The notes beneath the pieces are model-generated. The model made no database searches, had not been told where the DNA came from, and saw only the letters and a program-made list of their open reading frames with translations. Shown piece by piece: positions 3,737 through 46,766 of a stretch of 64,000 bases of DNA. The stretch is taken from contig OX597818.1 of assembly GCA_951406725.2 (NCBI GenBank), positions 77,252,001-77,316,000 of the forward strand, in the 5' to 3' direction. A program made the position numbers and the translations under genes. Position 1 is the first letter of the stretch. The number at the start of each line of letters is the position of its first letter. The DNA is from Octopus vulgaris (Eukaryota).

Positions 3737-4092
3737 AAAACAAAGCAAGTTATTAAAAATTAATAGTATGGCTCAAAGGTTTGTACTTTTAACTAGTATT
3801 TCAATATTTTGGGGACAGGACTGCTTCTTCAGAGAAAAACTTTTATTAACTAACTTCTCTGTTCCGCTGTATATATGTATGAAGGGTTGTTTTGAGTTGC
3901 TATATTTGCTACTGTTGCAACACAAAACAACTTTTCACAGATACACACTACAGAACAGAGAAGTCAACTAACAAAACGTTTCTTCTGTAAATTTCCTGAA
4001 GAAGGGCTCCTATTCTCAAAATATTGAAATACCAAGTAAAAGTGCAAACCATTGACTTGTATTATTAATTTTTAATAACATGCAATGTTTTT
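3737..4092. repeat. Degenerate inverted-repeat pair (3737-3835 / 3991-4092) with decayed hammerhead cores, probable PLE terminal-repeat relic
   Basis: The arms are reverse complements. Each reads CTGAAGA...AAAA-TAT-T closed by stem I atttc/gaaat. Confidence 0.55.
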
Positions 4093-4610
4093 AGCTTTGA
4101 AAAAAGTAATTAAAAACATTTATATGACAATGCTTCAGAAAATTATATATATATATAATTATATATGCATGTTCATGTGTTTTATACAGATTCCATGAAT
4201 CAAACTTTCTCACAAGCCATTGGTCAGTCCAGGGTTATAGTATTTAATACTTTGCCAAAAGGACCATGTAGAGGGGCTGCATGTTATGATCATAGGTAGT
4301 GTAAAGATGAAGATAGTATCTAAGACTCAAGTTTTCCACATACAATACAATACAGCAAAAAAAGAAAAAAAAAGTTATAAATGCAATATAACATTTTCCC
4401 CATGTTGTCATGGATGGATTGTCTATGTTTTGGGGTTGCTGTTACAAATACAGACATGTGAATATTGTAGCAAGAATCTACCAGCACCAGCAAGATTATC
4501 TTCCCATTGCTAAAAGTTCAATTTATGATGGAGTGAAGCCTGTGACACCTAGAGTTGCACCTTGCCAAGGCTTGAACCAATAAGGATACTGTCAGTAGTC
4601 AGGTTTACAC

Positions 4611-4646
<36 letters not shown>

Positions 4647-4829
4647 TACATTCGCCATGATAGATCGCTAGCCACTACACATTCTTTATTTTCACTCCCT
4701 GTTTCTTTCTGTGGAAGAGCGTAGGCTCAAAATATTAAAGACTTTTTCACTTCCTGAACGTTAAACTAATACATCTGCTTGTTGTCTACATCACCCATCT
4801 TCATCTTTTGTTTTTTGTGAATTCTCCCT

Positions 4830-5068
4830 ATCATCATCATCATCATCGTTTAACGTCCGTTTTCCGCGCTAGCACGGGTTGGACGGTTTCGACCGGGGTC
4901 TGGGGAGCTAGGGACTGCCCCAGGCTCCAGTCTAGTCTGGCAGTGTTTCTACAGCTGGATGCCCTTCCTAACGCCAACCACTCCGCGAGTGTAGTGGGTG
5001 TTTTTTACGTGCCACCTGCACAGGTGCCAGAGGGGTCTGGCATCGGTCACGTTCGGATGGTGCTTTTT
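4830..5068 (-). mobile_element. 3' tail of RTE-clade LINE (other tail copies ~6355-6640, 41275-41700, 46965-47200)
   Basis: Reverse complement of 18230-18460 including the (GAT)n tail. Confidence 0.8.
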
Positions 5069-5331
5069 CTATGTGGAGGGGGGGCAGAAATATAGGGGAG
5101 CACCAGTGGGGAGGGGTGGTTCAGAGAATGATGACAGGTTCTTAGGCAAGTAGAACGTAGGATATCAAGAGGGTAATGCATGCTGAAATAGCTTATTGAG
5201 GAGGGGGTTCGAAGAGTAGACACCTATAATGGTGGTGGGAGAAACAACATCCGGTATAGATGGAGCAAAAATATAGAGATATCCGGTATTGGTGGTGGGG
5301 GTGGGCAGGGTGGGGGCACCGCGTATACGCG

Positions 5332-6277
5332 GAGGTTGAAAAAGATGATAGAGCGAGACTTGGTCGGGCAGAGTTAATAGAGGAGAAATTAGATACAATA
5401 GTTAGATAGATAAATAACAACAGATAGGAAAACATGTATGATTGGTCGAGAAGTGAAGTGAAGTGAAAATAAATAAATAAAAATAAAATAATATAAGCAT
5501 TCAAACTTAGCTGTGCTCGAGATTATTAGCTGCTAGGTGAATGAAAGAGAGAGCACATGTTGTTGCCTTAAGTAAAGAAATTGACCGGAAAGGAATTTTT
5601 GGACAAGGCGGAAGTGTATTAAAGGAACAGGCTTCAAAGATGGCGGAGATCGATAGACAGATACGCGAGGGTTGAAAAAAGATGATAGAGCGAGACTTGG
5701 TCGGGCAGAGTTAATAGAGGAGAAATTAGATACAATAGTTAGATAGATAAATAACAACAGATAGGAAAACATGTATGATTGGTCGAGAAGTGAAGTGAAA
5801 ATAAATAAATAAAAATAAAATAATATAAGCATTCAAACTTAGCTGTGCTCGAGATTATTAGCTGCTAGGTGAATGAAAGAGAGAGCACATGTTGTTGCCT
5901 TAAGTAAAGAAATTGACCGGAAAGGAATTTTTGGACAAGGCGGAAGTGTATTAAAGGAACAGGCTTCAAAGATGGTGGAGATCGATAGACAGATACGCGA
6001 GGGTTGAAAAAAGATGATAGAGCGAGACTTGGTCGGGCAGAGTTAATAGAGGAGAAATTAGATACAATAGTTAGATAGATAAATAACAACAGATAGGAAA
6101 ACATGTATGATTGGTCGAGAAGTGAAGTGAAAATAAATAAATAAAAATAAAATAATATAAGCATTCAAACTTAGCTGTGCTCGAGATTATTAGCTGCTAG
6201 GTGAATGAAAGAGAGAGCACATGTTGTTGCCTTAAGTAAAGAAATTGACCGGAAAGGAATTTTTGGACAAGGCGGAA
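5332..6277. repeat. Tandem array, 332-bp period, ~2.85 near-identical copies
   Basis: ORFs 5533..5832 and 5865..6164 translate identically. Copies differ by few substitutions and a gaagt indel. Confidence 0.95.
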
Positions 6278-6338
<61 letters not shown>

Positions 6339-6739
6339 TGTGTGCATACATATATCATCATCATCATCATTATTTAATGTCTGTTTTCCATACTGGCCTA
6401 GGCTGGACAATTTGACAGGAGCAGGTAAGCCAAAGGACTGCACCAAGCTCCACTGTCTATTTTGGTTTTACAGTTGGATGCCCTTCCTAATGCCAACCTC
6501 TTTACAGAGTGAACTGGGTGCTTTTGGCATGACACCAGTACTGGTGAGATCTGTTTTGGCATGGTTTTTATGGCAGGATGCCCTTCCTAATGCCAACCAT
6601 ATTACAGAGTGGGCTGGGTGCTTTTTACGTGGCACCAGTATACAACTATATATATATATATATAATTCTATACCTACATAAATCAATCAATCTATCTATC
6701 TATATATATATATAATTCTATACCCACATAGTTTGTCAT

Positions 6740-9365
6740 AGTTATGGGGTTTGCATATCCCAGGGACCCTGAGAGTTATGCTGGTAAGAGTTTTAAGTCC
6801 CAGATAGATTAAAGTGCAGAGGTTTGATAAAGAGCAATCTCCTGATTACACTAAGTAGGGATTGGTCACATGACTAATTTTCAAGTCTGGTCAAAATACC
6901 TTTGTTGAAGGAACAGCAACAAAGGGAAATAACACAACTATATGTGATGTACTTTCAGAGTCACTGGAAGATACATGTATGAATGAAAGAAGGGAAAGCT
7001 GCAAGAAAGCTATTGACAGGAAGAGAAAAAAAAGTCCTCAGTGTAAACTGCAAGACAAGAACAGGATTCTGGAATGTGTGAATTATATCTTGAAACAAGA
7101 AAACTGGCTCAAGTTTTATCAGAGATGAGATGTCAATGGAGTAAGTGAGATATAATCAATGCAAGAAAAATAGTGATGTACTCAGGAATAAACTCCGCAA
7201 CCAACTACAAATAGGTTGACAGGATTTTCTTCCTGTTGATAACTCCCTTTCGGTTTTGTCTCCTACTATTCATACATGAAGTGGAGGCACATGGCTTAGT
7301 GGTTAGGACATTGGACTCATGATTATAAGACTGTGGTTTCGATTCCTGGATTGGACGACGTGTTGTGTACTTGAGCAAAACACTTTATTTCCAGTCCACT
7401 CAGCAGTAGAAAATGAGTTTAGCCTGGAGAGGGATGGGCTCTGCCAGGTTTTCTCTGCCAAGCTGCAGTGCCCCAACAACCCCCAAGAGGTTAAGGAACA
7501 TATCAACTGTCAATTCATACATGTGTCTTACAGTGACTCTCAAAGCCTTTGTCCTTAAAAGGGGGACAAAAAAGTGCTTGATGGAATGTAAATCTATCAA
7601 CAGTAGATTCCTGAAAATCAGAATCCGAGGCAAAGAGATCAATATTGCTATCATCTGATGCTATGTTTCAACAAACAACAGTGGTAAAGAAACTGAGACT
7701 AGCTACAAGCAGAATTGTAACTCACTTTGTGACACAATCTGAAGCTTGTAATGGGCAACTTAAATGCAAAGGTAGGCAACGGCAATACACATAATGAAAG
7801 CGCTATAGGAAGAAACAGTTGTAGCACTATAAATAATGATGGAGAGAGGCTACTGGAACTTGATATTACTGGATGGAATGCCAGTCTGTTGTAGGCTTAA
7901 CTCTTTACCACATCATCATATTTACAAGGTGAACTCGTGTTCCTCTAACAGAAGAAACAAAAATCAGATTGATCCTCTAATGATCAACAGCCCCTAAAAT
8001 TGGTCATATATTGGTCATGCACTGGTACTGTTAGAGTGAACAAGAGAAGTTCACAGCAACAACCACTTGGTTACAATAGCTGACACTGAACTAGAAACTA
8101 AGGAGATCATGGTGAAATAACTTTAATAAGAAGTATACTTTTGCCCTCCTATTGTACAGCAGATTGTGGGCTCTGGCTGATATGGAAAGTCAGATGCAGT
8201 CAGACCCAGAAGAAGTCAACACTAAATAGAAACAAAACAGAATGACATGGTTCTGAACCCAACGCAGCTTGTTGGAGTACAAACAGAAAAGGAGAAAGTG
8301 GAAGATGAGAGCAGACACAGGGTATCTCACAGGCATGAAGAAGTTCTTAGAGATCAAGTCAAAGAGTGTTTGAGAGAAATGCAAACTGCTGTACAAGGAG
8401 GTTGAGGAACAAGGGAAGATGATGGTAATAGTGGACAAATGAATTTCTGCAGACAGATCTGCTAGCTGAGCAGAAAATGCAACCAGGATGAGATGCAAGG
8501 GGAGATATATAAGATCATCAGACCTGTCCTTCACATTAAAAGGTTATAATAACTTTATGCATAAAGTGGGTAATAGTTACTGGAGTAAAGCAGAGTTTCG
8601 TGATGTTATAGCTGCTGCTTAATATATTCAGACTGGGTGATGGAGCAAACAACTGATAACCAACCAAGAGGCATCTCATGAACCCACTTTAAAACACTGG
8701 CAGGTTTTGACCTCACGGATGACCTTGTACTTATGCCCCCCCCCCCGTACCTATGGGAAAAAAAAAATCGACAGGTTTAGAAACTTTGAATAGTAAATTA
8801 GGAATGAAAAATCACCCAGAAGAAGACAGTGGTAGTAACAATAAACACCTCAAATCCCTCATCAATCACAGTAGGTTTACCCACAAGAAGGGTTCACTTA
8901 TTTCAACAGTGTTCTCAGATATGATGGAAGACATCAAAAAATGTCTCAGCAAGGTAAAAAACACCTTCAAAAGATTGAATAATATATGGCAGTCCATTTC
9001 ATCAACACCAAGCTGAGATTATATCAGAGTGGAGTTGGAGTATGAAAGTGACTTCATCAAGCTCTCTACCTTCCACACTGAGAAGATTAGAATATTGAGA
9101 GTCTTCAGGCTTAACACTATCTCCAATCAATTATTCATCCAAAATAGACAAGGAAACAGGAAAACCATTATCATAAGTGGACAACATCATGAGTGGACTA
9201 CTGTTTACTGGATGACAGAAGGGAGAGAGGAAGGTCCCAGAATATCTGATACCTAAAAGTAGAGAGTTGAAGACTATGAACCACACATAGGAAACTATTT
9301 TGAAGTTTGTCTAGAATGAGCACTTGTGGTGAACCTTTATTGCTGCTAGTAGAACAAGAATGAGT
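6740..9365 (+). mobile_element. Decayed RTE-clade LINE (APE endonuclease plus RT remnants), interrupted by a SINE
   Basis: KTRTGFWNV..KLAQV (~7050-7130), KKCLMECKSINSRFLKIRIRGK..IAII (APE), DDLVL-like RT motif (~8715) and DIKKCLSKVKNTFKRLNNIW. Many stops. Confidence 0.75.
7283..7412 (+). mobile_element. tRNA-derived SINE head
   Basis: A box tggcttagtggttagg and B box gtttcgattcc. Same family as 10890-11145 and 18688-19020. Confidence 0.8.
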
Positions 9366-9884
9366 GAGAGATTAATTATACCTAAAGGTTTGTTGTGGTT
9401 GATATTAGTGAACCACACTCAACAGTGTTTGAAATAAATTTATTGAGAAAAGTATTTGAGCTTCATGTATGAAATCAGCGGACTAACTGCAGAAATTTTT
9501 TAGGTGTAAGGAAATAATTCAGTTTGCCTACACACAAGTACAGCAGACTATATTTGGGTTATATATATTGTTTATTAGTAAAGGTTTGTTAGATATTATA
9601 ATTGTTTGTGTAAATATGTTGTTTTATAACACAGGTGTGTAATGAGAATTTTGTGTTTGTGCATGGAAAACACAAACAAATAACATAATATATATATATA
9701 CATTTAATTATATGTGTGTGCATATATATATATATATGTATGTATATATACATACACACACACACATACACAATTATATATATATATATATACAAGATAT
9801 GGAGGGTTGCATTTACAACCCCTATCTCAATTTGGCCACAGCTCGTGAGCTGAAACTAGAATCAATCAATCAATCAATCAATCA

Positions 9885-9915
<31 letters not shown>

Positions 9916-10062
9916 GATGAGTGCTCAGCATTTTAAATCTGTTGTAATACTTACAACATTTAATAAAATGTTGTAGTATACGAAACGATCGCACCAAATT
10001 ACCGGAGTCATTCTTGTTGCTTATTTTGAGTATATATATATATACATACATATATATGTATG

Positions 10063-10100
<38 letters not shown>

Positions 10101-10889
10101 TGTGTATATAGTAAATCCCAAAAAGAACAAACACAAAAAAACAACGCGAAGATGTGGTACATGTAATGTATTAGCAGACGCTCAGGAAAGGAAAGAAATG
10201 CATGTATGTGTGTGTGTATGTGTCTGCGTGTGTGTCTGTGCATATGTAATACACACACACACATTTTATTGTATATATGTCATGAAATGTAACAATACAA
10301 AATACAAAAATATAATTTTTACTGCTAACATGATTTGAATTAGGCACATAACATTGACTTTCTTGAATATTTAAAATAAAATCTATATAACAACTAAATA
10401 TATCAAAACCAAATATGCCTCCCAAATTAAATACTTGATTAAATAATTGTAAAGCAAACACTTCAATTAATGAAATGTAATTGTCAACAGGTTGATAAAG
10501 GTAAATAAAATAAAATTTTTAAAAATTGAAAAACAAGCAATAAGAAACAGTAATTTCACTGTCTTGACAAACTTATTTATCACACAACCATAAATGTAAA
10601 TACACACACATTGTTATTTTATAAGAATTCTGAGAGAGTGAGAAATAATTCTTTTCTGGAATATCTTGAAGTGTTTACATAAAGATATAAATAACATACA
10701 TAAAGTCGAAGGAAGCATTCAACTTTTTCTATCCAGAAGGATTTTCCAACCCAATATTTTCATGATTCATGTGTGCTTCATGAGATTCCCCAAAAGAATA
10801 TACATATATAGATATACACACACACACACACACACACAAGCATGAACTTTTTTTCCTTGTAAGTTTGGATTTTATTCCCTCAAATAATA

Positions 10890-11145
10890 ATAAGGGCCGG
10901 TTTCCCGGTTTCCTTGGCGTATAGGTTCCCTACTTGGATGGGATGCTGGTCCGTTGCAGATGAGCGGCAAGATGCAGGAAGAAAGAGTGAGAGAAAGTTG
11001 TGGCAAAAGAGTCAGCAGGAGTTCGCCATTACCTTCTGCTGGAGCTACATGGAGCTTAGGTATTTTGCTCATAAACATCTGAGATTTGAACCTGTGATCC
11101 CTCAACCGCGAGTCCGCTGCTCTAACCACTAGGCCATGTGCCTCC
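10890..11145 (-). mobile_element. tRNA-derived SINE
   Basis: Minus strand reads ggaggcacatggcctagtggttagagcagcggactcg...ggttcaaatc, followed by a non-tRNA body. Confidence 0.8.
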
Positions 11146-11447
11146 ACTATATATATATATATATATATAAAAATGTCTGTATGTATAATAGATGTGTGTG
11201 TGTGTGTGTATGTAAATATATATGTATATGTGTGTGAGTATTTGTGTGTGTAGAACACAACAAAACCTCAATTAGAAATGAAGAAATCACTGGATAATGA
11301 TGAATATGATAAATATATAGCAGCAAGTGTGATTAAAACGAAGGCAATGTAGATGACGCGTCCAGCGGCATTAAAGGGCATATGCTGACGGATATACTTT
11401 AAAGCCAGTTTGTTTTCATTAATGCGGAACGTGATGACAATACTCAC

Positions 11448-11545
11448 CAGGAATGCGAAAGCATCCGCAGCAATGAGCATATAGAAGACATAATTCCAGT
11501 TCCGTTGTGACAAGATCCCTGTTAATAATGGACCCAGAGCAGCAC
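11448..11545 (-). CDS. SLC37A2: SLC37 exon (GAALGPLLTGILSQRNWNYVFYMLIAADAFAFL)
   Basis: cctAG / GTgagt, 98 nt, phase 1 to 0. Lies within ORF 11268..11594. Confidence 0.95.
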
Positions 11546-11645
11546 CTAGGTAATAGATGAAATACAGTACAGTGTAATGAACATACATGTGCATGTATGT
11601 ATGTGTATATATATATGTGTATATATATATATATATATATTTATA

Positions 11646-12900
11646 CAGGGGTTGGACAAAATAATGGAAACACCTACCATCATAGCATCATAATTTTGAA
11701 ATATCTATAAAACCGTCAAAAGCTTGTTTATTTTTGCTTTTTGATTTATTATTAGTGTTGCTTAATATGTTTTGCTAAAATTGCTGTTTCTTTTGAGATA
11801 TCATCAGTAAAAAGGAAATTAAAATTCATTAAAATGACAGATCTATTAGACTTTCAAAGAGGTGCTCGCATGGCAGGCGCTAGCGTAATGAAAACAGCCA
11901 AAATGTTAGGTGTATCAAGAAGTACTGTCTTGAAAGTAATGACAGCCTTTGAGAAAGAGGAAAAAACCTCCTCGTCAAAACAAAACTCCGGAAGAAAACC
12001 AAAACTTTCAGATAGGGACTGTTGGACTCATGTGAATTGTTAGAAAGGATCACAACAGTACAGCTCCCAAAATTACTTGAGAATCCGGTTTCCACAAAAA
12101 CTGTTCACTGGGAGCTGCTCAAAGCTGGATTTCATGGGAGGGCTGCAAACAGAAAACCACTACTTTCAAAAACAAATGTTGTAAAGCGTTTAGAGTGGAA
12201 TAAAAACCTACAGAATTAGTCCCTATAGTAGTGGAAGAATGTTATTTTCTCAGACAAGTCATCCTTTACCCTATTTCCAACCACTGGCCAAGTATATGTG
12301 TGGAGACAGCTAAAAGAAGCATTTGACCCAGAGTTCCTTCTTCCACCCGTTAAACATGGAGGAGGATCTGTGATGATCGGGGTGGGGGGTGGGGGGAGGG
12401 TGTCATATCTTGGAAATCTGCTGACCCAATGGTTTCCCTTCAGGGAAGAATTAATAGTCAAGACTATTTAAGCATTTTATCTGATCAAATTCATCCTATG
12501 GTTGCAGAACTCTTTCCGGAGGGAAACGCAGTCTTTCAGGATGATAATGCACCAATTCACAGAGCTAAAGTTGTTACGGAATGGCATGAGGAACATTCTA
12601 GTGAAGTTGAACATCTTATTTGGCCACCACAGTCCCCAGATCTCAATATTATTGAACATTTATGGTGCATTTTAGGAAAACAAGTAAGGAGTTGATATCC
12701 TCCACCATCATCACTACAACAACTGGAAACTGTTTCAGCTGAAGAATGAAAAAAAATTCTTTTTGAAACAATTCAAACTTTGTATGAGTCCATATCACAT
12801 AGAATTCAAGCTGTGATTACTGCCAAAGGTGGTCTTACTCCATATTAAAATTAATTTGTTTGAAATTTTAAGGTGTTTCCATTATTTTGTACAACCCCTG
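11646..12900 (+). mobile_element. Full-length Tc1-superfamily transposon, DD36E (Incomer-like), transposase disabled
   Basis: ~30-bp TIRs caggggttggacaaaataatggaaacacct / aggtgtttccattattttgtacaacccctg, TA duplications, 1255 bp. Fragments include HTH and GRKPKLS, VIFSD, FQDDNAPIH...SPDLNIIE with 36 residues between D and E. Frameshifts and stops present. Confidence 0.93.
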
Positions 12901-13750
12901 TATATATGTATGGCAATGAGTCAAAAAAGAAGACAATCCAAGAAGGGCCAGTTTTAACAAATGTTTTAGTTTAATGCTTGAAAAGAAGGGAGTGAGTCTT
13001 GATATTTTGGATGCTAGCCCTTCATCAAAAGAAATAAAAGAAAAGGAAAATATAAAGGAGAAAAGGTGGTGGGAGAGAAAAAAAATTGTTTACAGCCAGG
13101 TGGAAATGTCGTTCTATGGGGTGAATTAGGAAGGGAGGAGGTGGTGTGGGGTGTGCATGTATAGGAGGATATCCATGAATAGAAATGAGCATGGGGGAGT
13201 TGTGTGTGTGTGTGTATGTATAGTAGTACAGGGTACTTGTGGTTTCTTGGGATGTGTGTAGGCATGCACATGTGGGAGTGTAGTGGCATGGAATAATGGA
13301 GGTGTGGGGGGGATAGTGTGTAGGCATAATTATGTCGGATGATTAAAATGTGTACTTCATTGAATGCATGAATATGATTTGGTGACTGACTCACCTTTGA
13401 CAGGAATTGAACTCAAAGGTGAAGGGATGTGACTAAATACCACAAGGTATATTTTGGTTGCTACTCAACTAATTCTAATAGTCCACAAAGAACAGCAAAA
13501 ATTCAAAGCAATGAGGTACGTATTCATTCTTAATATATTCAAGCAGATTCAAATGAGAATAGAATATGCTAAATACTGGTGCATTTTGTCTATGGGGAAC
13601 AATTTCTTTCAGACTATGTGTGTTTATGATACACTTGATTCATTGAGATAATGGAATTTTGAGATATTGTAGTGTTTCAAGCTGGTTGTTTCTTCAGTCA
13701 AAGATACCCTGGACCAGTGAATCTAAACAAAAACTGAGACTCTTGTTTAA

Positions 13751-14620
13751 CCTTTTGATACTAACCTGCCTGAAACTGCCTCTGGCTCAGTAATACAAAT
13801 GTCTTGTTTTCAAAAGTTCTGAATTAAAATCTTCCACCCAACCTTAGTCACAATTTATGTTCCTAACACTAGCTTAATGATAACTAAGTTATTTTACTAA
13901 ATACTTTGTTATATTTAAAAGTAGCAGCTAGGCCTGGTTTCACCCAGTCAGTTTGGATGGTGTGGCTGTAAAACCTGCTATGTGTAAGCATTTGACTTGT
14001 TTCTGTCAAAATGCTAAAAATAACTGATCAACAAAAAATCAAAAAAAAACCAACCAAGATTCAACCAAATCAAAAAATAAACCCAAATACTAAGTGAACA
14101 AACATGAACCATCCCACTTCCATTGCGTGCGCACACGCACCCCCCCCTTTTACATACACTCATATATTCACACAGTTGAAACACTGTTTGATTTATTTTT
14201 TCAGCATACAGTTTTCATCATCCCACTACCAAGTATGACATCACTCCTTCCTTTCTCATTCATAAACACAAGAGTATTATTATAGTAGATTATCGCGGTA
14301 ACCATAGGAGCTATGAAAAAAATATGACATCACTCCTTCCTTCCTTATTCATCTATTACCCCTTCCTTTCTCATTCATAAACACAAGAGTATTATTATAG
14401 TAGATTATCTTGGTAACCATGGGAGCTATGAAAAATACAAAGCCCAGCAACACCACCGGATCATGCTTCACATCTGTGTAATTTTTCGCGCAGTAATTCC
14501 ACCCAGCCGTTTGATCATGAATACTAAGACAAGAAAGAATTGCCCATGTCAAATTTATATGTATAGATTAATTGAAAGAAACACAAGAGCATCTCAACAG
14601 AAATATGGTGACAAAAGGGT
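13751..14620. mobile_element. TTAA-flanked MITE split by a Helitron insertion (related copies ~20830-21077, ~62945-63152)
   Basis: ttaa-CCTTTTG ... CAAAAGG-gttaa ends. The internal sequence matches the uninterrupted copies. Confidence 0.65.
13921..14567 (-). mobile_element. Non-autonomous Helitron-like element
   Basis: Minus strand begins a|TCTATACATATAAA and ends in hairpin ctgggtgaaaccagg plus a CTAG-like end (CTAC). Internal ~85-bp duplication at 14236-14435. Confidence 0.6.
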
Positions 14621-18597: not shown

Positions 18598-18683
<86 letters not shown>

Positions 18684-35775: not shown

Positions 35776-35814
35776 CTCTGTTTCTGAAGACTGAATATAT
35801 TTGTTTTGGGATTT
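35776..35814 (-). CDS. SLC37A2: Probable SLC37 loop exon (KSQNKYIQSSETE)
   Basis: ttctAG / GTatgt, 39 nt, phase 0 to 0, open frame. Lies in the non-conserved loop, so support is from splice signals only. Confidence 0.6.
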
Positions 35815-35879
35815 CTAGAATAATAATAAGGACAATAATAATAATAATTTCTAATATTTAGATAATGACAATTTCTTTT

Positions 35880-36446
35880 ATGTATGATAATAATTGACAG
35901 AGCCGACCAGTATCTACACTGGTTAATATGTCAGTGTTATAAAATCAAAAGTAGTTATAAGTATCAATCTGAAGCTGTAAATGAGGAAATAAATGTAACA
36001 ATTCTTTGGGACTTTTCTGTACAGAGACAGAACCATCAAAGCTAATAAACCAGATATTGTTATAAAAGACAAAATAATAAAATCTATTTACTTATCAAGA
36101 TGAGTAACCCTTTTGATCATAATATTGCAGCAAAGATTTTGATAAGCTCAGAAATTGAAAAAATGTGGCATCTCAAAGCAGTTACAACACCAGTAATTGT
36201 AGGAGAACTAGGAATTATCAAAAAAGAATGAAAAGTTATTCAAGAATGATCCTTAGAAAAAGTGCAAAAGGCTCTTTTAGCTGGTATGTCACATGAATTG
36301 AAAAGAACATTGTTGCTGTGAGAACGATAACTTTCCATGTAAATCATTTTTATTCTTGCATAACTTTTCCTTTATCCTAGGTGTCTGGAAGACAGTAAAA
36401 AATGAAAACAAAATTGAAGGAAGCAGAAAATAATAATAATAATAAT
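35880..36446 (+). mobile_element. 3' fragment of REL-endonuclease non-LTR retrotransposon (R4/Dong-like)
   Basis: ILWDFSVQ..DRTIKANKPDIVIKD..PFDHNIAAK..EIEKMWHLKAVTTPVIVGELGII is a PD-(D/E)xK REL domain. Flanked by TAA repeats (35819-35847, 36430-36444). Confidence 0.78.
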
Positions 36447-38169
36447 TTTGGCACAAACCCAGCAATTTTGGGAAAAGGGTAAATTGATTGCACTGACCCG
36501 AGTATTCAACTGGTACTTATTTTATCAACCCCAAAAGGATAAAAGGCAAAGTCAACCATGGCAGAATTTGAACTCATGACATGAAGGTGTATGAAATGCC
36601 ATTAAGCATTTTGCCTGGCATACTAATGATTCTGCCAGCTTGCCGCCTTTATAATAATAGCAATAAAAATTTAGAATCTATTTTCCATGCTGGCATGGGT
36701 TGGACAGTTTGACAGGATCTGGTGAGCTACAGGGCTGCATCAAACTCCTATGTCAGCTTTGGCATGGTTTTTATAGCCGGATGTCCTTTCTAATGCCAAA
36801 TAATAATATTTTATTACTAATTCTAACTGGCAGTACCTTTGGAAATTCCACACTTAATTTGAAAACTGTAAGATGGTTGGAAGTTTATAGAGAATCATGA
36901 AATATATAACTCAGTTTGAAATTGTATTTTGTTGAAATATTTGATTCTTCAGATGGTACAAAAGTCCTTATTGGTAGAATTGAATGTGCAGTCTTAGGAA
37001 ATAACATCACTGAAAGCTGTAGTCCTAGATATACACTTGTGACCTCTTCTACTTTGAGAGTTGTTATACAATCTTAACTATGGAACAAAATCTACATATA
37101 ATATTGTTCTGCCTCGGTATGATAATAATGGTAAAGATTCGGCAAATTTTAATACACTGCATTACATTCTTATTTTCATATCATAAATCTTCGTCATACA
37201 TCTCAAACTTTGTCTGTATTGCACTTTCACTTGTGGTTAACGACACACAACCTGTGTCTGATATATTGTGTGTAAGGGAGCAAATCACTCCCTCGTAGCA
37301 TAGGTGTCCAGTAACGATGAAGGGTAAAGACCCAGAAACCATGGTCTACTGGTCTTGCCGAACTGGAAAAGATGTTTTCCTGGTGTTAAAGTGTAGTAAC
37401 ATAGTTCTTTATGGAACAGCCATGTTATAGTGGCAAAAAAAACCTTACCATCTAGAATTGTTACTACTTATCTCGTTTAGAGATTTCAGAAGTAGCTACT
37501 TTGCTCCTAGTATATATATATAAAATAGAAAAATGGGACAAGAACACAAAAAATACATATATACATATATATCACCAAGTGTATAGCTAACAAGAATGAC
37601 TGTAGTCAAGGTTAAGGTAAACCCCCATGTTGGTCTGAAAATCCAAGAAACACAACATTGTTTACGTGTATGTGTTTACATTTGTACTCATTTATACTAG
37701 AGTCACGATATTCATAAGTTGGGCTTGTTGGCATTTCTCCTGCCCATAAATTACCTGCTCACTTTGTATCGTTATAGCTGTGTAGACTAAGAGATCCCCT
37801 GAAAAACAGGTAAGGGTTAACATCAGGAGGGGTATCCTGCTGTAACATATTTGTCTAAACTATGCTAGCATGAAAAAATAAATAGTAAAAATGAATGAAC
37901 TATCCTCACCATATTGTGTACAAGCATCCCTACTGTATTGTGTATGACATCATCTTTTTCAGACATAGCATACATAGGAGTACATTATTGAATGTGCCCT
38001 TTCTTTCTTTAAAACAGTAATGTGATTTGAGTAACCACATAAATGCTTCCCTGTTGGCTGTAAATTGTATATACACACATGCTAAGTAGGGAATGAAGGG
38101 AATATAAAAGATCAATGAAAATAATATCAAAATAATTAAAATGGAAAATTAGTAAAGAAATTGATTTAC

Positions 38170-38210
38170 CTCTGCATGTTCTGGAGGAGTACACTGAACA
38201 AATTCAGGTC
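38170..38210 (-). CDS. SLC37A2: SLC37 exon (RPEFVQCTPPEHAE), start of central cytoplasmic loop
   Basis: ttttAG / GTaaat, 41 nt, phase 1 to 0. Resembles SLC37A2 HPEDVDCAPP. Confidence 0.85.
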
Positions 38211-38602
38211 CTAAAATGATATTTCACAATTAGAAAATATTATCAAATTTCACAAAATGGGAATTGTCTGAAAATAAACTGCATTTTTAAACTCACAAAA
38301 CAAGGATACTTATTTCAAAGTTCTTACTCTGTAATAACTTGATATTCCTCATCATTTAATGTACATTCTTCATGCTGGCATGCTGGTGCTATTTGTCTGT
38401 TCTGATATGGTTTTTACAGCTGGATGCCCTTTGTAACACCAACCACTTTACAGCAGGTACAAGGTGCTTTAAATGTGGCACTGGCATGAGTGCATTTACA
38501 GATTATACCCTAACTCAGTAAGTAGAAACTCAACAAGTAACATTTCAGCAAGTGCCGCAAGTATTAACATAACAAGTATCTAAGTGAGTGTGTATGTGTA
38601 TA

Positions 38603-38815
38603 CAGGGTGGCCCAAAAGTTGGTTTACAGTTATTCAGCTATCTCTTTCGCATTCATATATTAACAGTTTAGATCTTAATTATAAAAAAAATATGAAACTA
38701 TTATTCTATGCTAATTTAGTTAACTGCAAAATAGAAATTTAAACGCAATGAAATTTTTTAAAAGAAATTTAAAGTGCCTATGTGATAACTGTAAACCTAC
38801 TTTTGGGCCACCCAG
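38603..38815. mobile_element. Tc1/mariner MITE
   Basis: ta-cagggtggcccaaaagttggtttacagttat ... ataactgtaaacctacttttgggccacccag-ta. Confidence 0.85.
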
Positions 38816-39603
38816 TATATATGTGTGTGTATATGTATATGTGTGTGTGTGTATATATAGATGTATGTATGTGTGAATGTTAGTGCTTGCTAAGTTGTGG
38901 CTCTTGTTAAAATGTTACTTACTGAGTCGTAGTGCTCCCGTATTTACATAGCGCTGATATGGGTGCTTTTTACATGGCACCGGCATTGGTGCTTTTTTTA
39001 TGTGACACAGGCACGGGCGCTTTAAATAGGACAAGCATGGGTGCTTTTACATGACACCAAGACCCACAAGCCAACAAGGCAAGGGTCTCTTGGCTGAAAG
39101 AGGGATGAAAAGCATATGTCTGTATGCATGAGTAGCCATGATTTTACTTAGCTTGACATGTCTTCTCAAGCACAGCAGACTGCCAGAGGTCTTGGTCACG
39201 TGTCATCTTCTCTGTGAGGATGAATGTCTTGAGATCTTTTTTCACCATTTCGTCTCACATCTTCCTGGGTCTACCCCTCCCACATGCTCACTCCACAATT
39301 AGAAATCAGCACTTTTTGACTTTGCCATGATTGCATGAGTCAGATGAATTCACTGAGGTTGATTTTCTATGACTGGATCCTCTTCCTGTCACTTGTTTCC
39401 AAGTAAGATAATATAAGGTGCCATGCAGTGGAACTGAACCTGAAATCACATGGTTGCAAAGTGATATTCTTAATCACACTGCCCATGCTGGCACTCTAAA
39501 ATTTGAAAATATAATTGATTTAATTATGTGTACCTGTCAAACATATATGATTGTCAAAGTAATAATATTGTTAATTAAGAATGTTTTATCAAACTTTACT
39601 TAC

Positions 39604-39770
39604 TGTGAATCATAAATAGAAAGGCAAAAATACCCATGGCTCCAATAATTATTCCAGGAGCAACGAAAGACCATCCCCAATTTGTTTCAACAAATTCTCC
39701 AGCTATAACAGAACCAAGAATGTTTCCTACTGATGTATGAGAATTCCATATTCCCATTATCAATCCACGG
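39604..39770 (-). CDS. SLC37A2: SLC37 exon (RGLIMGIWNSHTSVGNILGSVIAGEFVETNWGWSFVAPGIIIGAMGIFAFLFMIH)
   Basis: tttcAG / GTaagt, 167 nt, phase 2 to 1. WNSHTSVGNILG is diagnostic of SLC37A1/2. Confidence 0.96.
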
Positions 39771-39869
39771 CTGAAATTAAAAACAAAAACAGAAATTACA
39801 CATTTGATAATAAATTAGTTATGATCTTTATGAATCTCCATTAAAGAAGTACAGTAGTTCTCAACCTTG

Positions 39870-40240
39870 TGTAGTTCAGTAGTTTTTTTACAATCATAAT
39901 GTGAAATGGCAGCAACATATGACAAATGAATGCCTTTACAAAGACCAGTTGAAGGAATCCGAGGTAGATGCAGACCCAGCCAAAAGTTAGTGAGAAAAAT
40001 CAAGCAAAGAGGGCTGCAACTATCTGGTGACTGCATGCACCACTCTAAACTGGAAGTATCCAAATTAGTCTTCTGGAACCCACTTCATGTTGATGTAAGA
40101 AAAGGAAAACATCATCACACTTACATTGACAACCTGACCACAGACATTGGCTTGGGATGTATCCAGGACCATGACGCAGTGATGTTGGACCAAGAGGTGT
40201 GACAGGGAAACTTTGTTGCTGTGGCCCAGGGTGGAACACA
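39870..40240 (+). mobile_element. Decayed LINE ORF2 C-terminal fragment (RTE/RTEX-like)
   Basis: ORF 39930..40202 RGLQLSGDCMHH..SKLVFWNP...RKGK..TYIDNL resembles RRLxLAGHCxRH..LVLWxP..GR..TYID. Confidence 0.6.
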
Positions 40241-40399
40241 GCCATAAAAAAAGGAAAAAATGTACAGAGTGACATTGAGCAAGGCTCTTCATTTCACACT
40301 GCTCCAGTCTATTCAGTTAAAAATTAACACCAGGCTAATGCTGATGTCAAATGTAAGTAAAGCCCTGGTAGGATGATATCTAGCAGGAGATGGACAGCT

Positions 40400-41000
40400 A
40401 TAAGGTAGGAGGCTGTGGTCTGATGTGTGCACACCCACAGTTCTTTGTTGGAAATGAGATGGTACCAACTAATGTCCTTGATAGTTCTCAGGGCTCAGCT
40501 ATTGAAGTTGGCAATCCTTTTTGCCAAGGTCATCGAGAGAGGCCACATATCTGCTCCATAGAGGAGAATGGAGAGTGTCAATGCATTGTAGATGCAGCTG
40601 AACATGACTGGGGAAGATCTCCAGAGGCTTGATGTCATCTTGGAGGATGGAGAGGGTCTAGCATTGGACCACCAGCAACGGAGAGCACTGGTAGACCTGG
40701 TCAGCTCTATGCATGATGATGTCTCTGGGATCACCTCAGCCCCATCAAGCAAGAGCATGAAGCAAACAAAAGCAAAGTAATATTGATGCGCTCCTCTTTC
40801 TCTCCTCCCTCCACCCTGACTGTCATGTCCTAGATGTGCCTGTGGATCAAAGAGTGTGAGAATGAAAAAGTACCTATGACAGCTTGTGATTGTATATGCA
40901 CCTAAAACAAAAGCATGGTATATTTTGTCAAGCCTCATCATTCATTGATGATGGCTGGCTCTTTTACTTGAGGTGAAAAGATGGGTTGGAAATGAATTGT
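40400..41000 (-). mobile_element. Decayed LINE RT fragment
   Basis: IYNALTLSILLYGADMWPLS..KRIANF matches the LLYGxETW motif of RTE-like ORF2. Confidence 0.6.
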
Positions 41001-43064
41001 AAAGTGTCACAGTTCTGGGTGAGAAGAACTGGATGAATGGTTTAGTACAAGATCTAAACTATATGAAGAAAGTGGAAAGAGCACTCAAATTTTCTACTAT
41101 TATTTTTTTTTTTTTTTACTTTTCTGCTTTAACTTGGGTCTGGGGGAAGAAACTGCTCATGGTTTTTTCAGGCCCTCCTAGATTGATGCTATTAATGTTT
41201 AAAGTGTTCTCTGAAAGAGAAAGCAAAAATCAACCAAATGCTCCCAACATCAATGCAAACACTTGAATCATTATCATCATCATTTAGTATCCGTCTTCCA
41301 TGCTAGCATGGGTTGAACGGTTCAACTGGGGTCTGGGAAGCCAGAAGGCTGCACCAGGTCCAGTCTGATCTGGCAATGTTTCTATGGCTGGATGCCCTTC
41401 CTAACGCCAAACACTCCCTGAGTGTAGTGGGTGCTTTTTACGTGCCACCGGCACAGGTGCCAGAGGAGGCTGGCAAACGGCCACGATCAGATGGTGCTTT
41501 TTATGTGCCACCAGCATGGAGGCCAGGCGAGGCTGGCAATGGCCACGATCGGATGGTGCATTTTACGTACCACCGGCACAGAGGCCAGTCAGGGCGGTGC
41601 TGGCAACGGCCATGTTCGGATAGTTCTCTTACGTGCCAACGTAACTAGTATCACAGCTACAATTTTCATTGATGTTGATCGATTTCGATTTTCACTGACA
41701 GTTTAACAGGGACTGATGAGTTGGATGACAGCATTATGCCATTCCTGTTACTAACCACTTTGCAGAGTGTAATGGGTATTTTTTTTTGTGGCATCAGCAC
41801 TAGTGATGACTGCCTTATTATATGTAAGGTTAAGGGCCTAAAGTAGTCCCAAAGCAGAGAGGGAGAATAGAAGAGGGAATGTGCAATGATTCTAGGCAGA
41901 GGAATGAAGGAAAGTAAGAAACAGAAGAGGATGAGGAAAAGAGGGGAGAGGGAAGAAATTAGCAAGTCAGTTGAGAAAAAGGGAGGGATAGACTTGAATA
42001 TCAATAACTATTTAAACCATGGCACATACAAATAATAAGAGACAAATAGATATTGATCCAAACATTTGCCAACATCTAGATTGTCATTGATTAACTCCAG
42101 AGTATCAAAAATAGGGAAATTGTGCATTAAATGATGAGAACACTGCACCAAGTGCATCACCCTAGATATGCAGATATGAGACATCAATTTGGACTGTCTT
42201 TATTATTTAATCATTGTTCTAGCAGTAATCATCATGTCTTTAAGTCAGATTGTCAGACATATTCAAATTATATCATGCAATCTTCATGTTGAAGATGATA
42301 GGGTGTTTTTGAACATTTGGCTGTTACTCTGAGTAAGCTTAGCAATTATATAAAAACTCAAACTCATGGTGAATATCTCATGGTGTCAAAAGCCAATATG
42401 AGAATTTCTCTCATGGTAACTACTGCAGTATATTTGGTTCTAACAGAACATCCACATTTAAGTAGGGATAAATATTACCTCAAACTAAGGGGTTTTGCTC
42501 ATTTTACATTCATTTTTCTATGCTAGCATGGGTTAGACAAATATATAAATAGGCAAAGTTTTATAGCCCTTCTTGTTTTCCAAGTAAGGGATCTTTTATT
42601 CTGCACATCTCTGAAGTGTGTATGATAATTTTTTGACAGCTGAAATGACAACAGTGTCACTGCTTGTAGCTTGTGCATTCAAAGAACATGTAAACATCTC
42701 TCTCTCTCTCTTTCACACACACACATGTATACATATGAACACAAGCTTCTTTCAGTTACTCTCTATCAAATCCATTCTCAAAGTTTTGGGAAGCACAGGG
42801 CTATGGCAGAAGATTCTTGCCTAAAGTGCAGTGTAGTGGGAAGTGAACTTCTTACTTGTATAAGGATACTGTCATGTTTGCTTGACTTAACAGACAACTG
42901 CCAAATCTTCCTGAAATTTACACCTTACTGTGTTAAATACGAGTGTACATTGGACAACGTAGTCTTAGGCGAAAAGACATCTGGCCAGATAATAGGTCAA
43001 CTGGATCAGGGCTGATGTAGGGCTAATCAATAACTTTTTATAATTCTGTTGTCGTCGTCGTCGT

Positions 43065-43765
43065 CATCATCATCGTTTAACGTCCGTTTTCCACGCTAGC
43101 ATGGATTGGATGGTTCAACCGGCATCTAGGAAGCCAGATGCCTTTCCTAATGCCAACCAGTCCATGAGTGTAGTGGCTGCTTTTTTACGTGCCACTGGCA
43201 CAGGGGCCAGAGGAGGCTGGCAATGGCCACGATCGGTTGGTGCTTTTTATGTGTCACCGGCAGTCAGGGTGGCGCTGGCATCGGCCATGTTCAGATGGTG
43301 CTTCTTACATGCCACCGGCACGGGTATCACAACTACAATTTCCATTTGATTTTTATTTTGATGTTGATGTACTTCACTTAATAGGTCTCCTCAAGCACAG
43401 CAGATTGCCCTACAATCCAAGGTATTTTTGAATGGGCTAGGGCTGGTTATGCGAAACTGGTGTAGGATACAGCCAGGAACTCACTTTATTTGTCAGGTCT
43501 TTTCAGTCACAGCATATCTCGAGAAGTCTCGGTCTTTTGTCATTGCCTCTGTGAGGCCCAACATTTGAAGGTCATGCTTGACCAGCTCATCCAATGTCTT
43601 CCTGGGTCTACCTCTACCCCGGATTCCTTCAACTGTTTGGGAGTGGCACTTCTTCACACATCTCTCCTCATCCATCCATAGTACATGACCATACCAGTGC
43701 AAACGTCTCTCTTGCATGCCACATCTGATGCTTCTTATGTCCAACATTTCTCTGCACACTGACAT
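43065..43765 (-). mobile_element. 5'-truncated RTE-clade LINE
   Basis: ORF 43493..43765 (RRLHWYGHV...RGRPRKT) plus 3' UTR and tail, homologous to 17660-18460. Confidence 0.88.
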
Positions 43766-44351
43766 TATTTAAGCATATAAAATACAGGTTTACAAAACAG
43801 GATAAATGTTCACATTTTATACTCAAATGAAGTTACTGGTTATAATGAAATCAATAAAATAATGATTGGGATGCTAAGTATTGATATTAGTGAAGAAGGT
43901 CATATGGTAATCAAGGCAAAAAGCAAGTCTTTATCGGACACTTCTCGTTCAGCAACATTTACATAATAAAATATTGATATTAATACATCAATACATTATT
44001 AATGTTAATAATATCAATTCAGTATTGATATTAGTGATGAAGGTAGGATGGCAAGCAGGTAGAATTGTTAGCACACCAGGCAAAATGCTTAGCGGTATTT
44101 CATCTGTCTTTAACATTCAAATTCTGCTGAGGTTGATTTTGCCATTCATCCTTTTGGGGGTTGATAAAATAAGTACCAGTTGAACACTGAGGTCGATGTA
44201 ATTGACTAACCCCAACCCCTGAAATTGCTGGCGTTGTGTCAAAATCTGAAACTGATGTTAGTAATGAAAGTCTTATGATAGTCAAGGTAGAAACAAGTTG
44301 CTGTTGGGCTCTTATTAACATGATTTATGAAAGATTTTTGATTCTACTTAC

Positions 44352-44428
44352 TTCCCTTTACCAAACCAATTCCCCATGTAAGTCACAACACTGGGCCATC
44401 CTGATGCTTGAAATAAACCACAGAATAT
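44352..44428 (-). CDS. SLC37A2: SLC37 exon (IFCGLFQASGWPSVVTYMGNWFGKG)
   Basis: ttttAG / GTaagt, 77 nt, phase 0 to 2. GWPSVV...GNWFGKG is the GlpT/OPA family signature. Confidence 0.95.
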
Positions 44429-44576
44429 CTAAAAAGTGAGAGAAAAGTTATTAGTAAGAAATTATAATTTTATTATATGAAATGGTACTTAAGTTTTTAA
44501 AATTATTTTGCTACCTATCTTCTAAAACTATATACAGTGTTTGTTGAAATCCACAGATATATACCAAGTACACACA

Positions 44577-44786
44577 CAGAGTAGGCCAAAAGTCATGCAC
44601 CAAGTAAGTTTAATATGCTCTGGAATTGTCAAAGACATGCTTCAATTTTTCTAAAATTGAAGAAAATAAATAAATGAAATAATGATGAATACACATTTAC
44701 TTGCACATGACGAACAAAATGAATGATAATAACATAATATAAATAAAATGCCAAATGTTTTGGTGCATGACTTTTGGCTCACCCTG
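44577..44786. mobile_element. Tc1/mariner MITE
   Basis: TIRs cagagtaggccaaaagtcatgcaccaa / ttggtgcatgacttttggctcaccctg. Confidence 0.8.
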
Positions 44787-45604
44787 TATGTATGTATGTG
44801 TATATATATATAACGATGATGATGATGATATGTGTGTGTGTGTGTGTATGTATATATATATATATATAGTTCTTTTTTTCTTTTTTTTTTACTTGTTTCA
44901 GTCAGACTGCTGCCATGCTGGGGCACTGCCATGAAGAATTTTTAGTTGAATAAATCGACCCCAGTCTTGATTTATTTTTTTTTAAGCCTGGCACTTATTC
45001 AATCACTCTCTTTTGCTGAACTGCTAAGTTATGGGGATGTAAACACATCAGCACTGGTTGTCAAGCGGTGGTGAGGGACAACACAGACACAAAGACACAC
45101 ACATATACGATAGGTTTCTTTCCAGTTTCTATCTACTGAAACCACCCACAAGTATTGGTTGGCTCAAGGCTATAGTAGAAGACACCTGCCCAAGGTGTCA
45201 TGCAGTGGATCTGAACCTGGAACCATGTAGTTGGGAAGCAAGCTTCTTACTAGACAGCAGCCACGCCTGTGCATATATATATATATATATCTATATAGGT
45301 AATGCAATAAAAATGGTAAATAATTTTCCTGTGGTTTTTCATGTAACCAACAATTATTTACCGGTAAATTTCGGTATGTAAATACGACAAATTAATTGTC
45401 AGGACCTTTGTAAGGTTCAGTATATAGTAAAGAAAACAAGTTGGCTAGCAGCAAGCTGTTTCGCCTCATACCGAAGGAATTAGAAATGGCAGTCAAAGAC
45501 CGTTTTTTCCATTTCTATAAGTGGAGATTCCAAAACGAAGGCCCTTGCGGCTCACATACACAAAACCGGAGTGGCAAATATACGAATTCAGTCACTTACC
45601 GTTA

Positions 45605-45674
45605 ATAGCGAACACCGTGTTTCTGGATCACAAACATATAAAAAAGGGAGTTTGAATTCCGTCATCAGCGCTAT
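45605..45674 (-). ncRNA. Type I hammerhead ribozyme, intact core, sense to host pre-mRNA
   Basis: atagcg-CTGATGA-cggaattcaaac...gtttgtgatcca-GAAA-cacggtg-TT-cgctat. Confidence 0.8.
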
Positions 45675-46508
45675 ATTCGATAGCTTTATCAAATGCCACC
45701 AGCCCTCACTTCTGACCCAGCGACATCAGATAGTGGGGGGAAGTGCGCAGATGTTAAAACCAAGTAACGACTGGGAACGTAAATTTTCCCTCCAAAATTC
45801 TGCCATGCGCGCCTTCTGGGTAATCGTAATGGAATGAGGAATCCACATGGTAATGCAATAAAAATGGTAAATAATTTTCCTGTGGTTTTTCATGTAACCA
45901 ACAATTATTTACCGGTAAATTTCGGTATGTAAATACAACAAATTAATTGTCAGGACCTTTGTAAGGTTCAGTATATAGTAAAGAAAACAAGTTGGCTAGC
46001 AGCAAGCTGTTTCACCTCATACCGAAGGAATTAGAAATGGCAGTCAAAGACCGTTTTTTCCATTTCTATAAGTGGAGATTCCAAAAACGAAGGCCCTTGC
46101 GGCTCACATACACAAAACCGGAGTGGCAAATATACGAATTCAGTCACTTCTAATTCCTTCGGTATGAGGCGAAACAGCTTGCTGCTAGCCAACTTGTTTT
46201 CTTTACTATATACTGAACCTTACAAAGGTCCTGACAATTAATTTGTTGTATTTACATACCGAAATTTACCGGTAAATAATTGTTGGTTACATGAAAAACC
46301 ACAGGAAAATTATTTACCATTTTTATTGCATTACCATGTGGATTCCTCATTCCATTACGATTACCCAGAAGGCGCGCATGGCAGAATTTTGGAGGGAAAA
46401 TTTACGTTCCCAGTCGTTACTTGGTTTTAACATCTGCGCACTTCCCCCACTATCTGATGTCGCTGGGTCAGAAGTGAGGGCTGGTGGCATTTGATAAAGC
46501 TATCGAAT

Positions 46509-46579
46509 ATAGCGCTGATGACGGAATTCAAACTCCCTTTTTTTATATGTTTGTGATCCAGAAACACGGTGTTCGCTAT
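46509..46579 (+). ncRNA. Type I hammerhead ribozyme, intact core (inverted copy)
   Basis: Stem I atagcg/cgctat, CTGATGA 46515-46521, GAAA 46561-46564, stem III acac-g-gtgt, GUU triplet. Confidence 0.8.
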
Positions 46580-46766
46580 TAACGGTAAGTGACTGAATTC
46601 GTATATTTGCCACTCCGGTTTTGTGTATGTGAGCCGCAAGGGCCTTCGTTTTTGGAATCTCCACTTATAGAAATGGAAAAAACGGTCTTTGACTGCCATT
46701 TCTAATTCCTTCGGTATGAGGCGAAACAGCTTGCTGCTAGCCAACTTGTTTTCTTTACTATATATC

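What the first reader, a model, noticed from the sequence alone, without database searches (positions are those of the whole stretch)
3737..46764. Recurrent architecture: four unrelated hammerhead families all sit as divergent inverted pairs in one gene's introns
Seen: pairs at 3737/4092, 24738/29953, 28421/28949 and 45421/46764 share no obvious sequence outside the core. In each, the left copy reads the HHR on the minus strand and the right copy on the plus strand, and the two youngest abut (TA)n. Known: PLE insertions often include an inverted, truncated terminal copy. Inference: a long-lived PLE/ribozyme system of autonomous Naiad-type elements plus non-coding dependants has hit this locus repeatedly by the same mechanism and over a range of ages.
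Basis: partly seen in the sequence, partly recalled or inferred. Interest (0 to 1): 0.75.

Follow-up and report, generated by a model that had tools for sequence, protein, structure and literature searches.

The report
Head-to-head Penelope ribozyme insertions
The four back-to-back pairs of hammerhead-ribozyme motifs in the introns of this octopus sugar-transporter gene are the known footprint of Penelope-type jumping genes, which likely paste two copies at once from two fixed start points, and the gene is not an unusual target.

Summary
Four unrelated families carry type I hammerhead motifs as divergent pairs in introns of an SLC37A2-like gene. Pair 3 is nested in pair 2, so there are three host sites. 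The interpretation needs correcting. The autonomous element is Hydra-clade, not Naiad. Pairs 1 and 2 are truncated 3' ends of older coding PLEs, and only pair 4 is a non-coding retrozyme. The locus is no hotspot: 4 intact motifs in 64 kb against 40 in 800 kb of random genome. Head-to-head pairs with a tail on one arm are published PLE anatomy. What the genome adds is a strict rule. Among 76 consecutive insertions of the young Hydra family, 57 are two-armed and all divergent. In 52, one arm ends at site A and the other at site B; none is A/A or B/B. Arms share subfamily variants, and many are not nested, which favours twin priming from two reverse-transcription start sites over the published fold-back model. 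This scan noted the same twin-priming idea before on other retrozyme families of this genome. Cleavage and mechanism are untested.

The parts
3706..3900 (-). F1 left arm: 3' end of an old C-terminal GIY-YIG (CCHH-type) PLE; decayed minimal hammerhead (core at 3832, G12A); short end, no tail
3905..4142 (+). F1 right arm: decayed minimal hammerhead (core at 3996, G12A); carries the roughly 28-nt tail, then (TA)n
24640..29690 (-). F2 main arm: 5'-truncated older Hydra-clade PLE, from the last codons of the ORF through a long 3' UTR (about 0.9 kb missing here) to the hammerhead (core at 24845, H17=G) and a 94-nt tail (24640-24733); interrupted by F3
29691..29958 (+). F2 inverted arm: type I hammerhead with long stem II (core at 29847, GUA site 29921-29923, one stem I mismatch); short end, then TA-rich repeat
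24996..28600 (-). F3 main arm: full-length young Hydra-clade PLE, 5' pLTR (hammerhead core at 28558, G5A), ORF, 3' UTR, 3' pLTR (intact hammerhead, core at 25067), ending at site A; inserted in a TA run of F2
26240..28354 (-). F3 ORF, RT then GIY-YIG, broken here by a stop and frameshifts; intact 711-aa relatives elsewhere in the genome
28670..28952 (+). F3 inverted arm: pLTR copy with intact hammerhead (core at 28811, predicted cut after 28840), ending at site B (tail of about 70 nt), then (TA)n
45298..46149 (-). F4 left arm: 1.5 units of a 552-555-nt non-coding retrozyme, intact hammerhead (core at 45668), ending at site B (tail of about 120 nt), then (TA)n
46145..46764 (+). F4 right arm: 1.1 units, intact hammerhead (core at 46515, predicted cut after 46573), ending at site A, then (TA)n; 5-nt overlap with the left arm
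1449..62038 (-). Host gene, SLC37A2-like sugar-phosphate exchanger; coding exons found from 62038 to 1449 (last exon 1508-1449 in isoform X3); all four pairs lie in its introns

Best explanation
Each pair is one insertion of a Penelope-like retroelement (three truncated or full coding PLEs and one non-coding retrozyme that likely borrows a PLE enzyme), whose two head-to-head arms likely arise by twin priming. The PLE protein, predicted to be a dimer, would nick both strands of a (TA)n target. It would start one cDNA from each nick at one of two fixed sites just downstream of the hammerhead, and the two cDNAs would be joined at their element-5' ends by short microhomology. This puts both 3' ends outward and the 'tail' on one arm only. 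Shown: orientation, the two fixed ends, the one-A/one-B rule, shared variants between arms, family identities. Inferred: the priming steps, the dimer, the RNA 5' end near q120, ribozyme cleavage, and which PLE moves F4.
For: F3: 5,791 exact hammerhead matches genome-wide, reversed-pattern control 0. The first 100 matches give 76 insertions: 57 two-armed, all divergent; 52 A/B, 5 with one fixed and one other end, 0 A/A, 0 B/B; 19 single-armed, 12 A and 7 B (hand tally). In the 42 short A/B pairs, 18 are not nested by more than 5 nt and 5 are disjoint; B is on the left in 20 of 42; most junctions overlap by 0-7 nt. Arms differ at 4 of 126 diagnostic positions against 0.52 between insertions (37 overlapping pairs). 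F4: 16 divergent, 0 convergent, 18 tandem neighbours in the first 100 of 150 matches; no A/A or B/B among 13 of 26 and 10 of 18 (the two sets overlap) two-armed insertions. F2 9 of 28 and F1 8 of 27 other loci have an opposite-strand partner, all divergent. Random genome: 8 of 31 hammerhead sites have a partner covering the ribozyme, all divergent, in 5 families; SINE control 13 to 13. All four window pairs carry the tail on one arm only. In vitro, a Poseidon PLE nicks and extends both strands, starts RT at two adjacent internal sites that define the tail, and is predicted to dimerise (PMC11167929).
Against: No biochemistry here. Many junctions sit on a natural CTAG palindrome at q126-129, and 24 of 42 short pairs are nested or within 5 nt, which fold-back would also give; trimming of an opened hairpin could create some non-nested pairs. 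19 of 76 F3 insertions show one arm only. In F4, 9 of 13 two-armed insertions have a second arm ending at a variable, often TA-like point rather than a fixed site. Three F3 A/B calls (L278, L301, L307) have unaligned gaps between the arms. Shared variants do not distinguish one RNA molecule from two RNAs of one source copy. The F3 sample is the first 50 Mb of one contig. No PLE partner was found for F4.
Confidence: 0.7

Rival explanations
1. Fold-back self-priming: one cDNA (or an antisense template) folds back at a palindrome and is copied, so the second arm is a copy of the first (hypothesis in PMC3846280).
For: Recurrent 128/128 junctions on the CTAG palindrome; near-identical arms. Palindromes at inverted junctions were the basis of this model.
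Against: 18 of 42 short pairs are non-nested and 5 disjoint; L213 and F4 L017 and L333 are also non-nested. A copy cannot hold sequence its template lacks, and fold-back does not explain why the second arm stops at the other fixed site.
Confidence: 0.2
2. Two independent insertions into the same (TA)n tract, or later recombination, with convergent pairs removed by selection.
For: All families target (TA)n. The 2 convergent neighbours, and 1 of the 25 divergent neighbours (L251), are separate insertions. The window's F3 junction contains a TA run.
Against: Most junctions are flush with no TA between the arms; arms share variants (4 of 126 differ); no A/A or B/B; SINE neighbours show no orientation bias.
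Confidence: 0.05
3. The arms are terminal inverted repeats of DNA transposons (MITEs) that happen to contain hammerhead-like words.
For: Short F3 copies look like roughly 250-bp hairpin elements; Rfam finds no hammerhead.
Against: Arms are unequal, junctions vary, and the same ends lead into RT plus GIY-YIG ORFs; F4 forms partial tandems.
Confidence: 0.02
4. This gene is a hotspot repeatedly targeted by a PLE/ribozyme system.
For: Four families in 64 kb; F4 is rare (150 exact matches genome-wide).
Against: 4 intact motifs in 64 kb against 40 in 800 kb at random; 2 intact-detected pairs against 0.64 expected, P=0.14; one pair is nested in another.
Confidence: 0.08

Closest known systems
Hydra-clade PLEs (Craig et al. 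2021, PMC8557442; read: passages, section 11, supplement parts 1-2 and passages)
   Same: C-terminal GIY-YIG; RWK, DKT, CxCX5C, CxxC and CxH motifs; canonical hammerhead with short stem III and 1-nt loop; (TA)n target. Penelope-13_HM is listed with a sense and an antisense hammerhead from an inverted 5' copy. An octopus member (Hydra-1_Obim) is listed.
   Different: F3 and F2 are other families (different hammerheads from Hydra-1_Obim). Many F3 copies carry a U4C core. The one-A/one-B rule is not quantified in the parts I read.
PLE insertion anatomy and PAc mechanism (Arkhipova et al. 2013, PMC3846280, passages; Frangieh et al. 2024, PMC11167929, parts 1-2 of 4)
   Same: Head-to-head is the usual arrangement; the tail sits on one of the inverted pLTRs; RT starts at two internal sites downstream of the hammerhead; both strands are cut and extended.
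   Different: The 2013 paper proposes self-priming. The 2024 text I read does not tie the two sites to the two arms of inverted insertions. Tails here run from about 28 to 120 nt against 30-40 nt.
Minimal hammerheads of metazoan PLEs (Cervera and de la Pena 2014, PMC4209133, parts 1-2 of 4)
   Same: Extra base before stem II and a palindromic minimal stem III (F1); dual motifs 100-700 bp apart on opposite strands are already reported.
   Different: That text gives no orientation or end statistics.
Animal non-LTR retrozymes (PMC7229834, passages; bioRxiv 10.64898/2026.07.22.740005, parts 1-3 of 5)
   Same: F4 is a non-coding tandem unit with one type I hammerhead per unit, proposed to be moved by PLEs.
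   Different: F4 is dispersed as short PLE-style insertions with fixed ends and inverted arms; no pLTR parent was found.
L1 twin priming (Ostertag and Kazazian 2001; recalled, not read)
   Same: Both target nicks prime cDNA, and the products join by microhomology.
   Different: In L1 the second primer anneals at a variable internal site and nothing is duplicated; here both starts are fixed and the arms overlap.

Membership tests
Hydra-clade PLE (F3) | Single ORF, RT then C-terminal GIY-YIG, short element | tested here: met
   711-aa ORF in L318 and L319; domain order read from motifs, as Pfam has no hit
Hydra-clade PLE (F3) | RWK and DKT motifs, CxCX5C linker, CxxC and CxH around the conserved E and N, no CCHH | tested here: met
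   All present; definition
Hydra-clade PLE (F3) | Canonical hammerhead in the pLTR and (TA)n insertion | tested here: met
Hydra-clade PLE (F3) | Phylogenetic placement of the RT with reference Hydra elements | not tested
   No tree built; only by-eye likeness to Hydra-1_Obim
Hydra-clade PLE (F2) | C-terminal endonuclease with CxCX5C, CxxC, CxH | tested here: met
   Consensus of 7 of 20 loci with long upstream sequence (two of them, L373 and L374, near-identical duplicates)
Hydra-clade PLE (F2) | RT domain with RWK and DKT | not tested
   The loci did not reach far enough upstream
Naiad PLE | N-terminal GIY-YIG, CxC linker, C-terminal RT | tested here: not met
   F1, F2 and F3 all have the endonuclease at the C-terminus
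Naiad PLE | No canonical hammerhead | tested here: not met
   Type I hammerheads in all four families
Canonical C-terminal EN+ PLE (F1; Nematis or Neptune unresolved) | RT thumb, cysteine linker, GIY-YIG with CCHH | tested here: met
   Consensus of 20 loci; weak Pfam GIY-YIG hits, E 0.04 and 0.11, on two remnants
Type I hammerhead ribozyme | CUGANGA and GAAA cores, UH site, stems I-III | tested here: met
   Consensus of each family; core identity 0.91-1.00 against 0.84-0.97 elsewhere; F3 often U4C
Type I hammerhead ribozyme | Self-cleavage, probably as a dimer | not testable with these tools
   Needs in vitro transcription
Non-LTR retrozyme (F4) | Non-coding tandem unit with one type I hammerhead per unit | tested here: met
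   552-555-nt tandems of up to 4 units
Non-LTR retrozyme (F4) | Circular RNA monomer | tested here: inconclusive
   One contig joint goes back 553 nt; tandem DNA gives the same joint, and no run is on record as RNA

The most novel reading that the evidence does not exclude
PLE integration is asymmetric twin priming as a rule. One protomer of a dimer starts at site A and the other at site B of the same uncleaved RNA, so a complete event makes a head-to-head pair with exactly one tail, and single copies are failed or trimmed pairs. The young Hydra family of this octopus, with thousands of copies and many intact ORFs, would then be a ready system to settle how PLE inverted structures form, and a source of thousands of intronic RNA hairpins.
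Probability: 0.55. Interest if true: 0.5.

Novelty: new member of a known kind. Interest (0 to 1): 0.33.

Why it matters
The architecture itself is published, so the finding as stated is ordinary. Its use is in the counts. How PLEs make tandem and inverted structures is named as open in PMC8557442. The 52-to-0 one-A/one-B rule and the non-nested arms link the two RT start sites shown in vitro to the genomic footprint and argue against fold-back. The same footprint in a retrozyme supports PLE mobilisation of retrozymes. A young Hydra family with intact ORFs makes this testable. By inference only: each pair forms a long hairpin in host pre-mRNA, which could pair off its own ribozyme and offer a substrate for RNA editing.

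Tried and rejected
Rfam scan: no hammerhead family at E<=1, only microsatellite-driven miRNA hits. My first loose scan missed F2 (long stem II) and F3 (U4C core). Minimum-free-energy z-scores: 5 of 6 single copies no better than shuffles, as expected for minimal motifs that need dimers, so not used. Pfam gave nothing useful for the Hydra ORF; the protein atlas was unavailable. A short DNA search returned 0 because common words are skipped. Expression: no RNA holder listed; contigs of guessed-RNA runs cover F4 and the F3 pLTR, and depth drops upstream of about 28790 in both guessed-RNA and unlabelled runs, but contigs cannot show starts or levels. F2 first looked non-coding until longer loci showed the ORF end. 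Three 'convergent' and one mixed call lie in flank or TA sequence and do not cover the ribozyme, so they were dropped; L185 (upstream sequence only) was dropped too. L192 is an odd F3 fragment with a possibly convergent layout, unexplained. L030 was left out of the F4 end count because of an N run. Assembly artefact rejected: the arms differ with age, and an outside contig carries the window's F4 end with its flank. No partner PLE found for F4. Searches for prior statements of the rule; none found it, but the library lacks most subscription papers, Fig. S2 of PMC11167929 is a picture I could not see, and bioRxiv supplements were closed.
Full report
Setting. The window lies on contig C5 of a 2.8-Gb genome. 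A minus-strand gene matches Octopus SLC37A2-like proteins at 98-100%. Its coding exons run from 62038 to 1449. All four pairs are intronic, but so is nearly everything in the window.

Observation. The four inverted pairs are real, with arm identities of 74, 94, 97.5-97.7 and 99.2%, and they share no sequence. Consensus sequences from 30 loci per family fold as type I hammerheads. F1 is a minimal motif with an extra base before stem II and a 4-nt palindromic stem III. F2 has a long stem II and a palindromic tetraloop. F3 and F4 have a short stem III with a 1-nt loop, as in published Hydra hammerheads. A descriptor finds 4 intact motifs in the window against 0.09 in shuffles; the other 5 motifs are damaged. 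Rfam sees none, and 5 of 6 single copies fold no better than shuffles.

What the families are (q numbers count along the 283-nt F3 pLTR, window 28670-28952). F3 (24996-28952) is a full-length PLE with a broken ORF. Intact relatives encode 711 aa with RWK, DKT, CxCX5C, a C-terminal GIY-YIG, CxxC and CxH, the Hydra definition in PMC8557442 section 11. Many of the 129 scored RT matches lie in long open frames, so the family is young. It is not a Naiad: Naiads have an N-terminal endonuclease and lack canonical hammerheads. F3 sits in a TA run inside F2, whose two interior pieces are contiguous at another locus. F2 begins at the last codons of an ORF whose upstream consensus carries the Hydra endonuclease motifs (7 of 20 loci). 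F1 traces to an RT thumb, a cysteine linker and a CCHH-type GIY-YIG, an old canonical PLE of unresolved clade. F4 is a 552-555-nt non-coding tandem unit with 150 exact hammerhead matches genome-wide, a retrozyme; its partner was not found.

Orientation. F3 has 5,791 exact matches. In the first 100, neighbours within 5 kb are 25 divergent, 2 convergent and 0 same-strand (p=6e-6). Both convergent cases and one divergent case are separate insertions. F4 gives 16 divergent, 0 convergent and 18 tandem. F2 (9 of 28 loci) and F1 (8 of 27) show only divergent partners. In 80 evenly spaced 10-kb blocks, 8 of 31 hammerhead sites have an opposite-strand partner covering the ribozyme, all divergent, in 5 families; two SINE-like repeats give 13 divergent and 13 convergent.

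Hotspot. The random blocks hold 40 intact motifs in 800 kb (5 shuffles: 0 each), against 4 in 64 kb here. Two intact-detected pairs against 0.64 expected gives P=0.14. Decayed pairs were not counted in the random blocks. There is no evidence that this gene is special.

Ends. F3 arms end at site A (q208-213) or site B (q283), 40 to 110 nt past the predicted cut. My hand tally gives 76 insertions: 57 two-armed, of which 52 A/B, 5 with one other end, none A/A or B/B; and 19 single-armed (12 A, 7 B), some of which may hide a second arm. Three A/B calls have unaligned gaps. Among the 42 short A/B pairs, 18 are non-nested by more than 5 nt, 5 are disjoint, B is on the left in 20, and junctions mostly overlap by a few bases, often on a CTAG palindrome. 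Arms differ at 4 of 126 diagnostic positions against 0.52 between insertions. Short arms mostly start at q120-145, and the window's full-length copy starts at q121, which suggests the RNA 5' end (inference). F4 has two such sites about 120 nt apart: 13 of 26 insertions are two-armed, 4 A/B, 9 with a variable second end, none A/A or B/B; a pattern-picked, partly overlapping set gives 10 of 18, with 4 A/B. All four window pairs have the tail on one arm only.

Mechanism. The simplest reading is twin priming: both target strands are nicked, each primes a cDNA at one of the two sites on uncleaved RNA, and the cDNAs are joined head to head. A Poseidon PLE does cut and extend both strands in vitro, starts at two internal sites that define the tail, uses unprocessed RNA and is predicted to dimerise (PMC11167929). 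The published alternative, self-priming at palindromes (PMC3846280), predicts nested arms and fits about half the pairs, but not the disjoint ones without extra deletions. Neither model was tested here at the bench.

What is known. Inverted 5' copies with a one-sided tail (PMC8557442 Fig. 2 legend; PMC3846280), opposite-strand hammerhead pairs 100-700 bp apart (PMC4209133), a Hydra element with a sense and an antisense hammerhead, and retrozymes as PLE dependants (bioRxiv 10.64898/2026.07.22.740005; PMC7229834) are all in print. I did not find the one-A/one-B rule in searches. Earlier notes of this scan reached the same twin-priming reading on other retrozymes of this genome; these are unchecked and are not counted as support.

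Verdict. The added value is a quantified end rule in an autonomous Hydra element. Novelty: new member of a known kind. Interest 0.33.

Noticed in passing
window 30536-30718 / 31184-31362: Inverted pair, 96% alike, flanking about 470 bp; no hammerhead core found; looks like a TIR element or local inversion that includes a SINE piece.
   Followed up: partly
window 35017-35376; 31637-32247; 53241-53649: Old hairpins or inverted pairs (69-76%) without a convincing hammerhead core.
   Followed up: partly
window 46800-46950 (minus) and 4700-4800 (plus): Further decayed repeats next to (TA)n with hammerhead-like cores; similar sequence flanks several other loci.
   Followed up: no
L169, L191, L202, L214, L217, L218: A very common minimal hammerhead family (palindromic ACGU stem III), 6 hits in 800 kb, followed by (TA)n and seen only as single arms, unlike F3.
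   Followed up: no
L141:2307-4513: Young 359-bp tandem retrozyme as two divergent arrays (2 minus, 5 plus) in a random block.
   Followed up: no
F3 family, L221-L300: Two main pLTR subfamilies, one with a U4C hammerhead core; both spread widely, so either the variant still cuts or cutting is not needed.
   Followed up: partly
L263, L264, L272, L245: Disjoint B arms stop at q223-227, 10-19 nt short of site A, as if one polymerase ran into the other on the same RNA; microhomology could also explain it.
   Followed up: partly
window 11549-11271 and 1508-1449: The host gene has two annotated C-termini: read-through of a splice donor (isoform X1) or a last exon 10 kb downstream (isoform X3).
   Followed up: partly
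window 5325-6277: 332-bp unit repeated 2.9 times at 98% identity; no hammerhead by the descriptor.
   Followed up: no
window 17424-17942 (+): RTE-type LINE 3' remnant (label from recall of the motif, no call).
   Followed up: no
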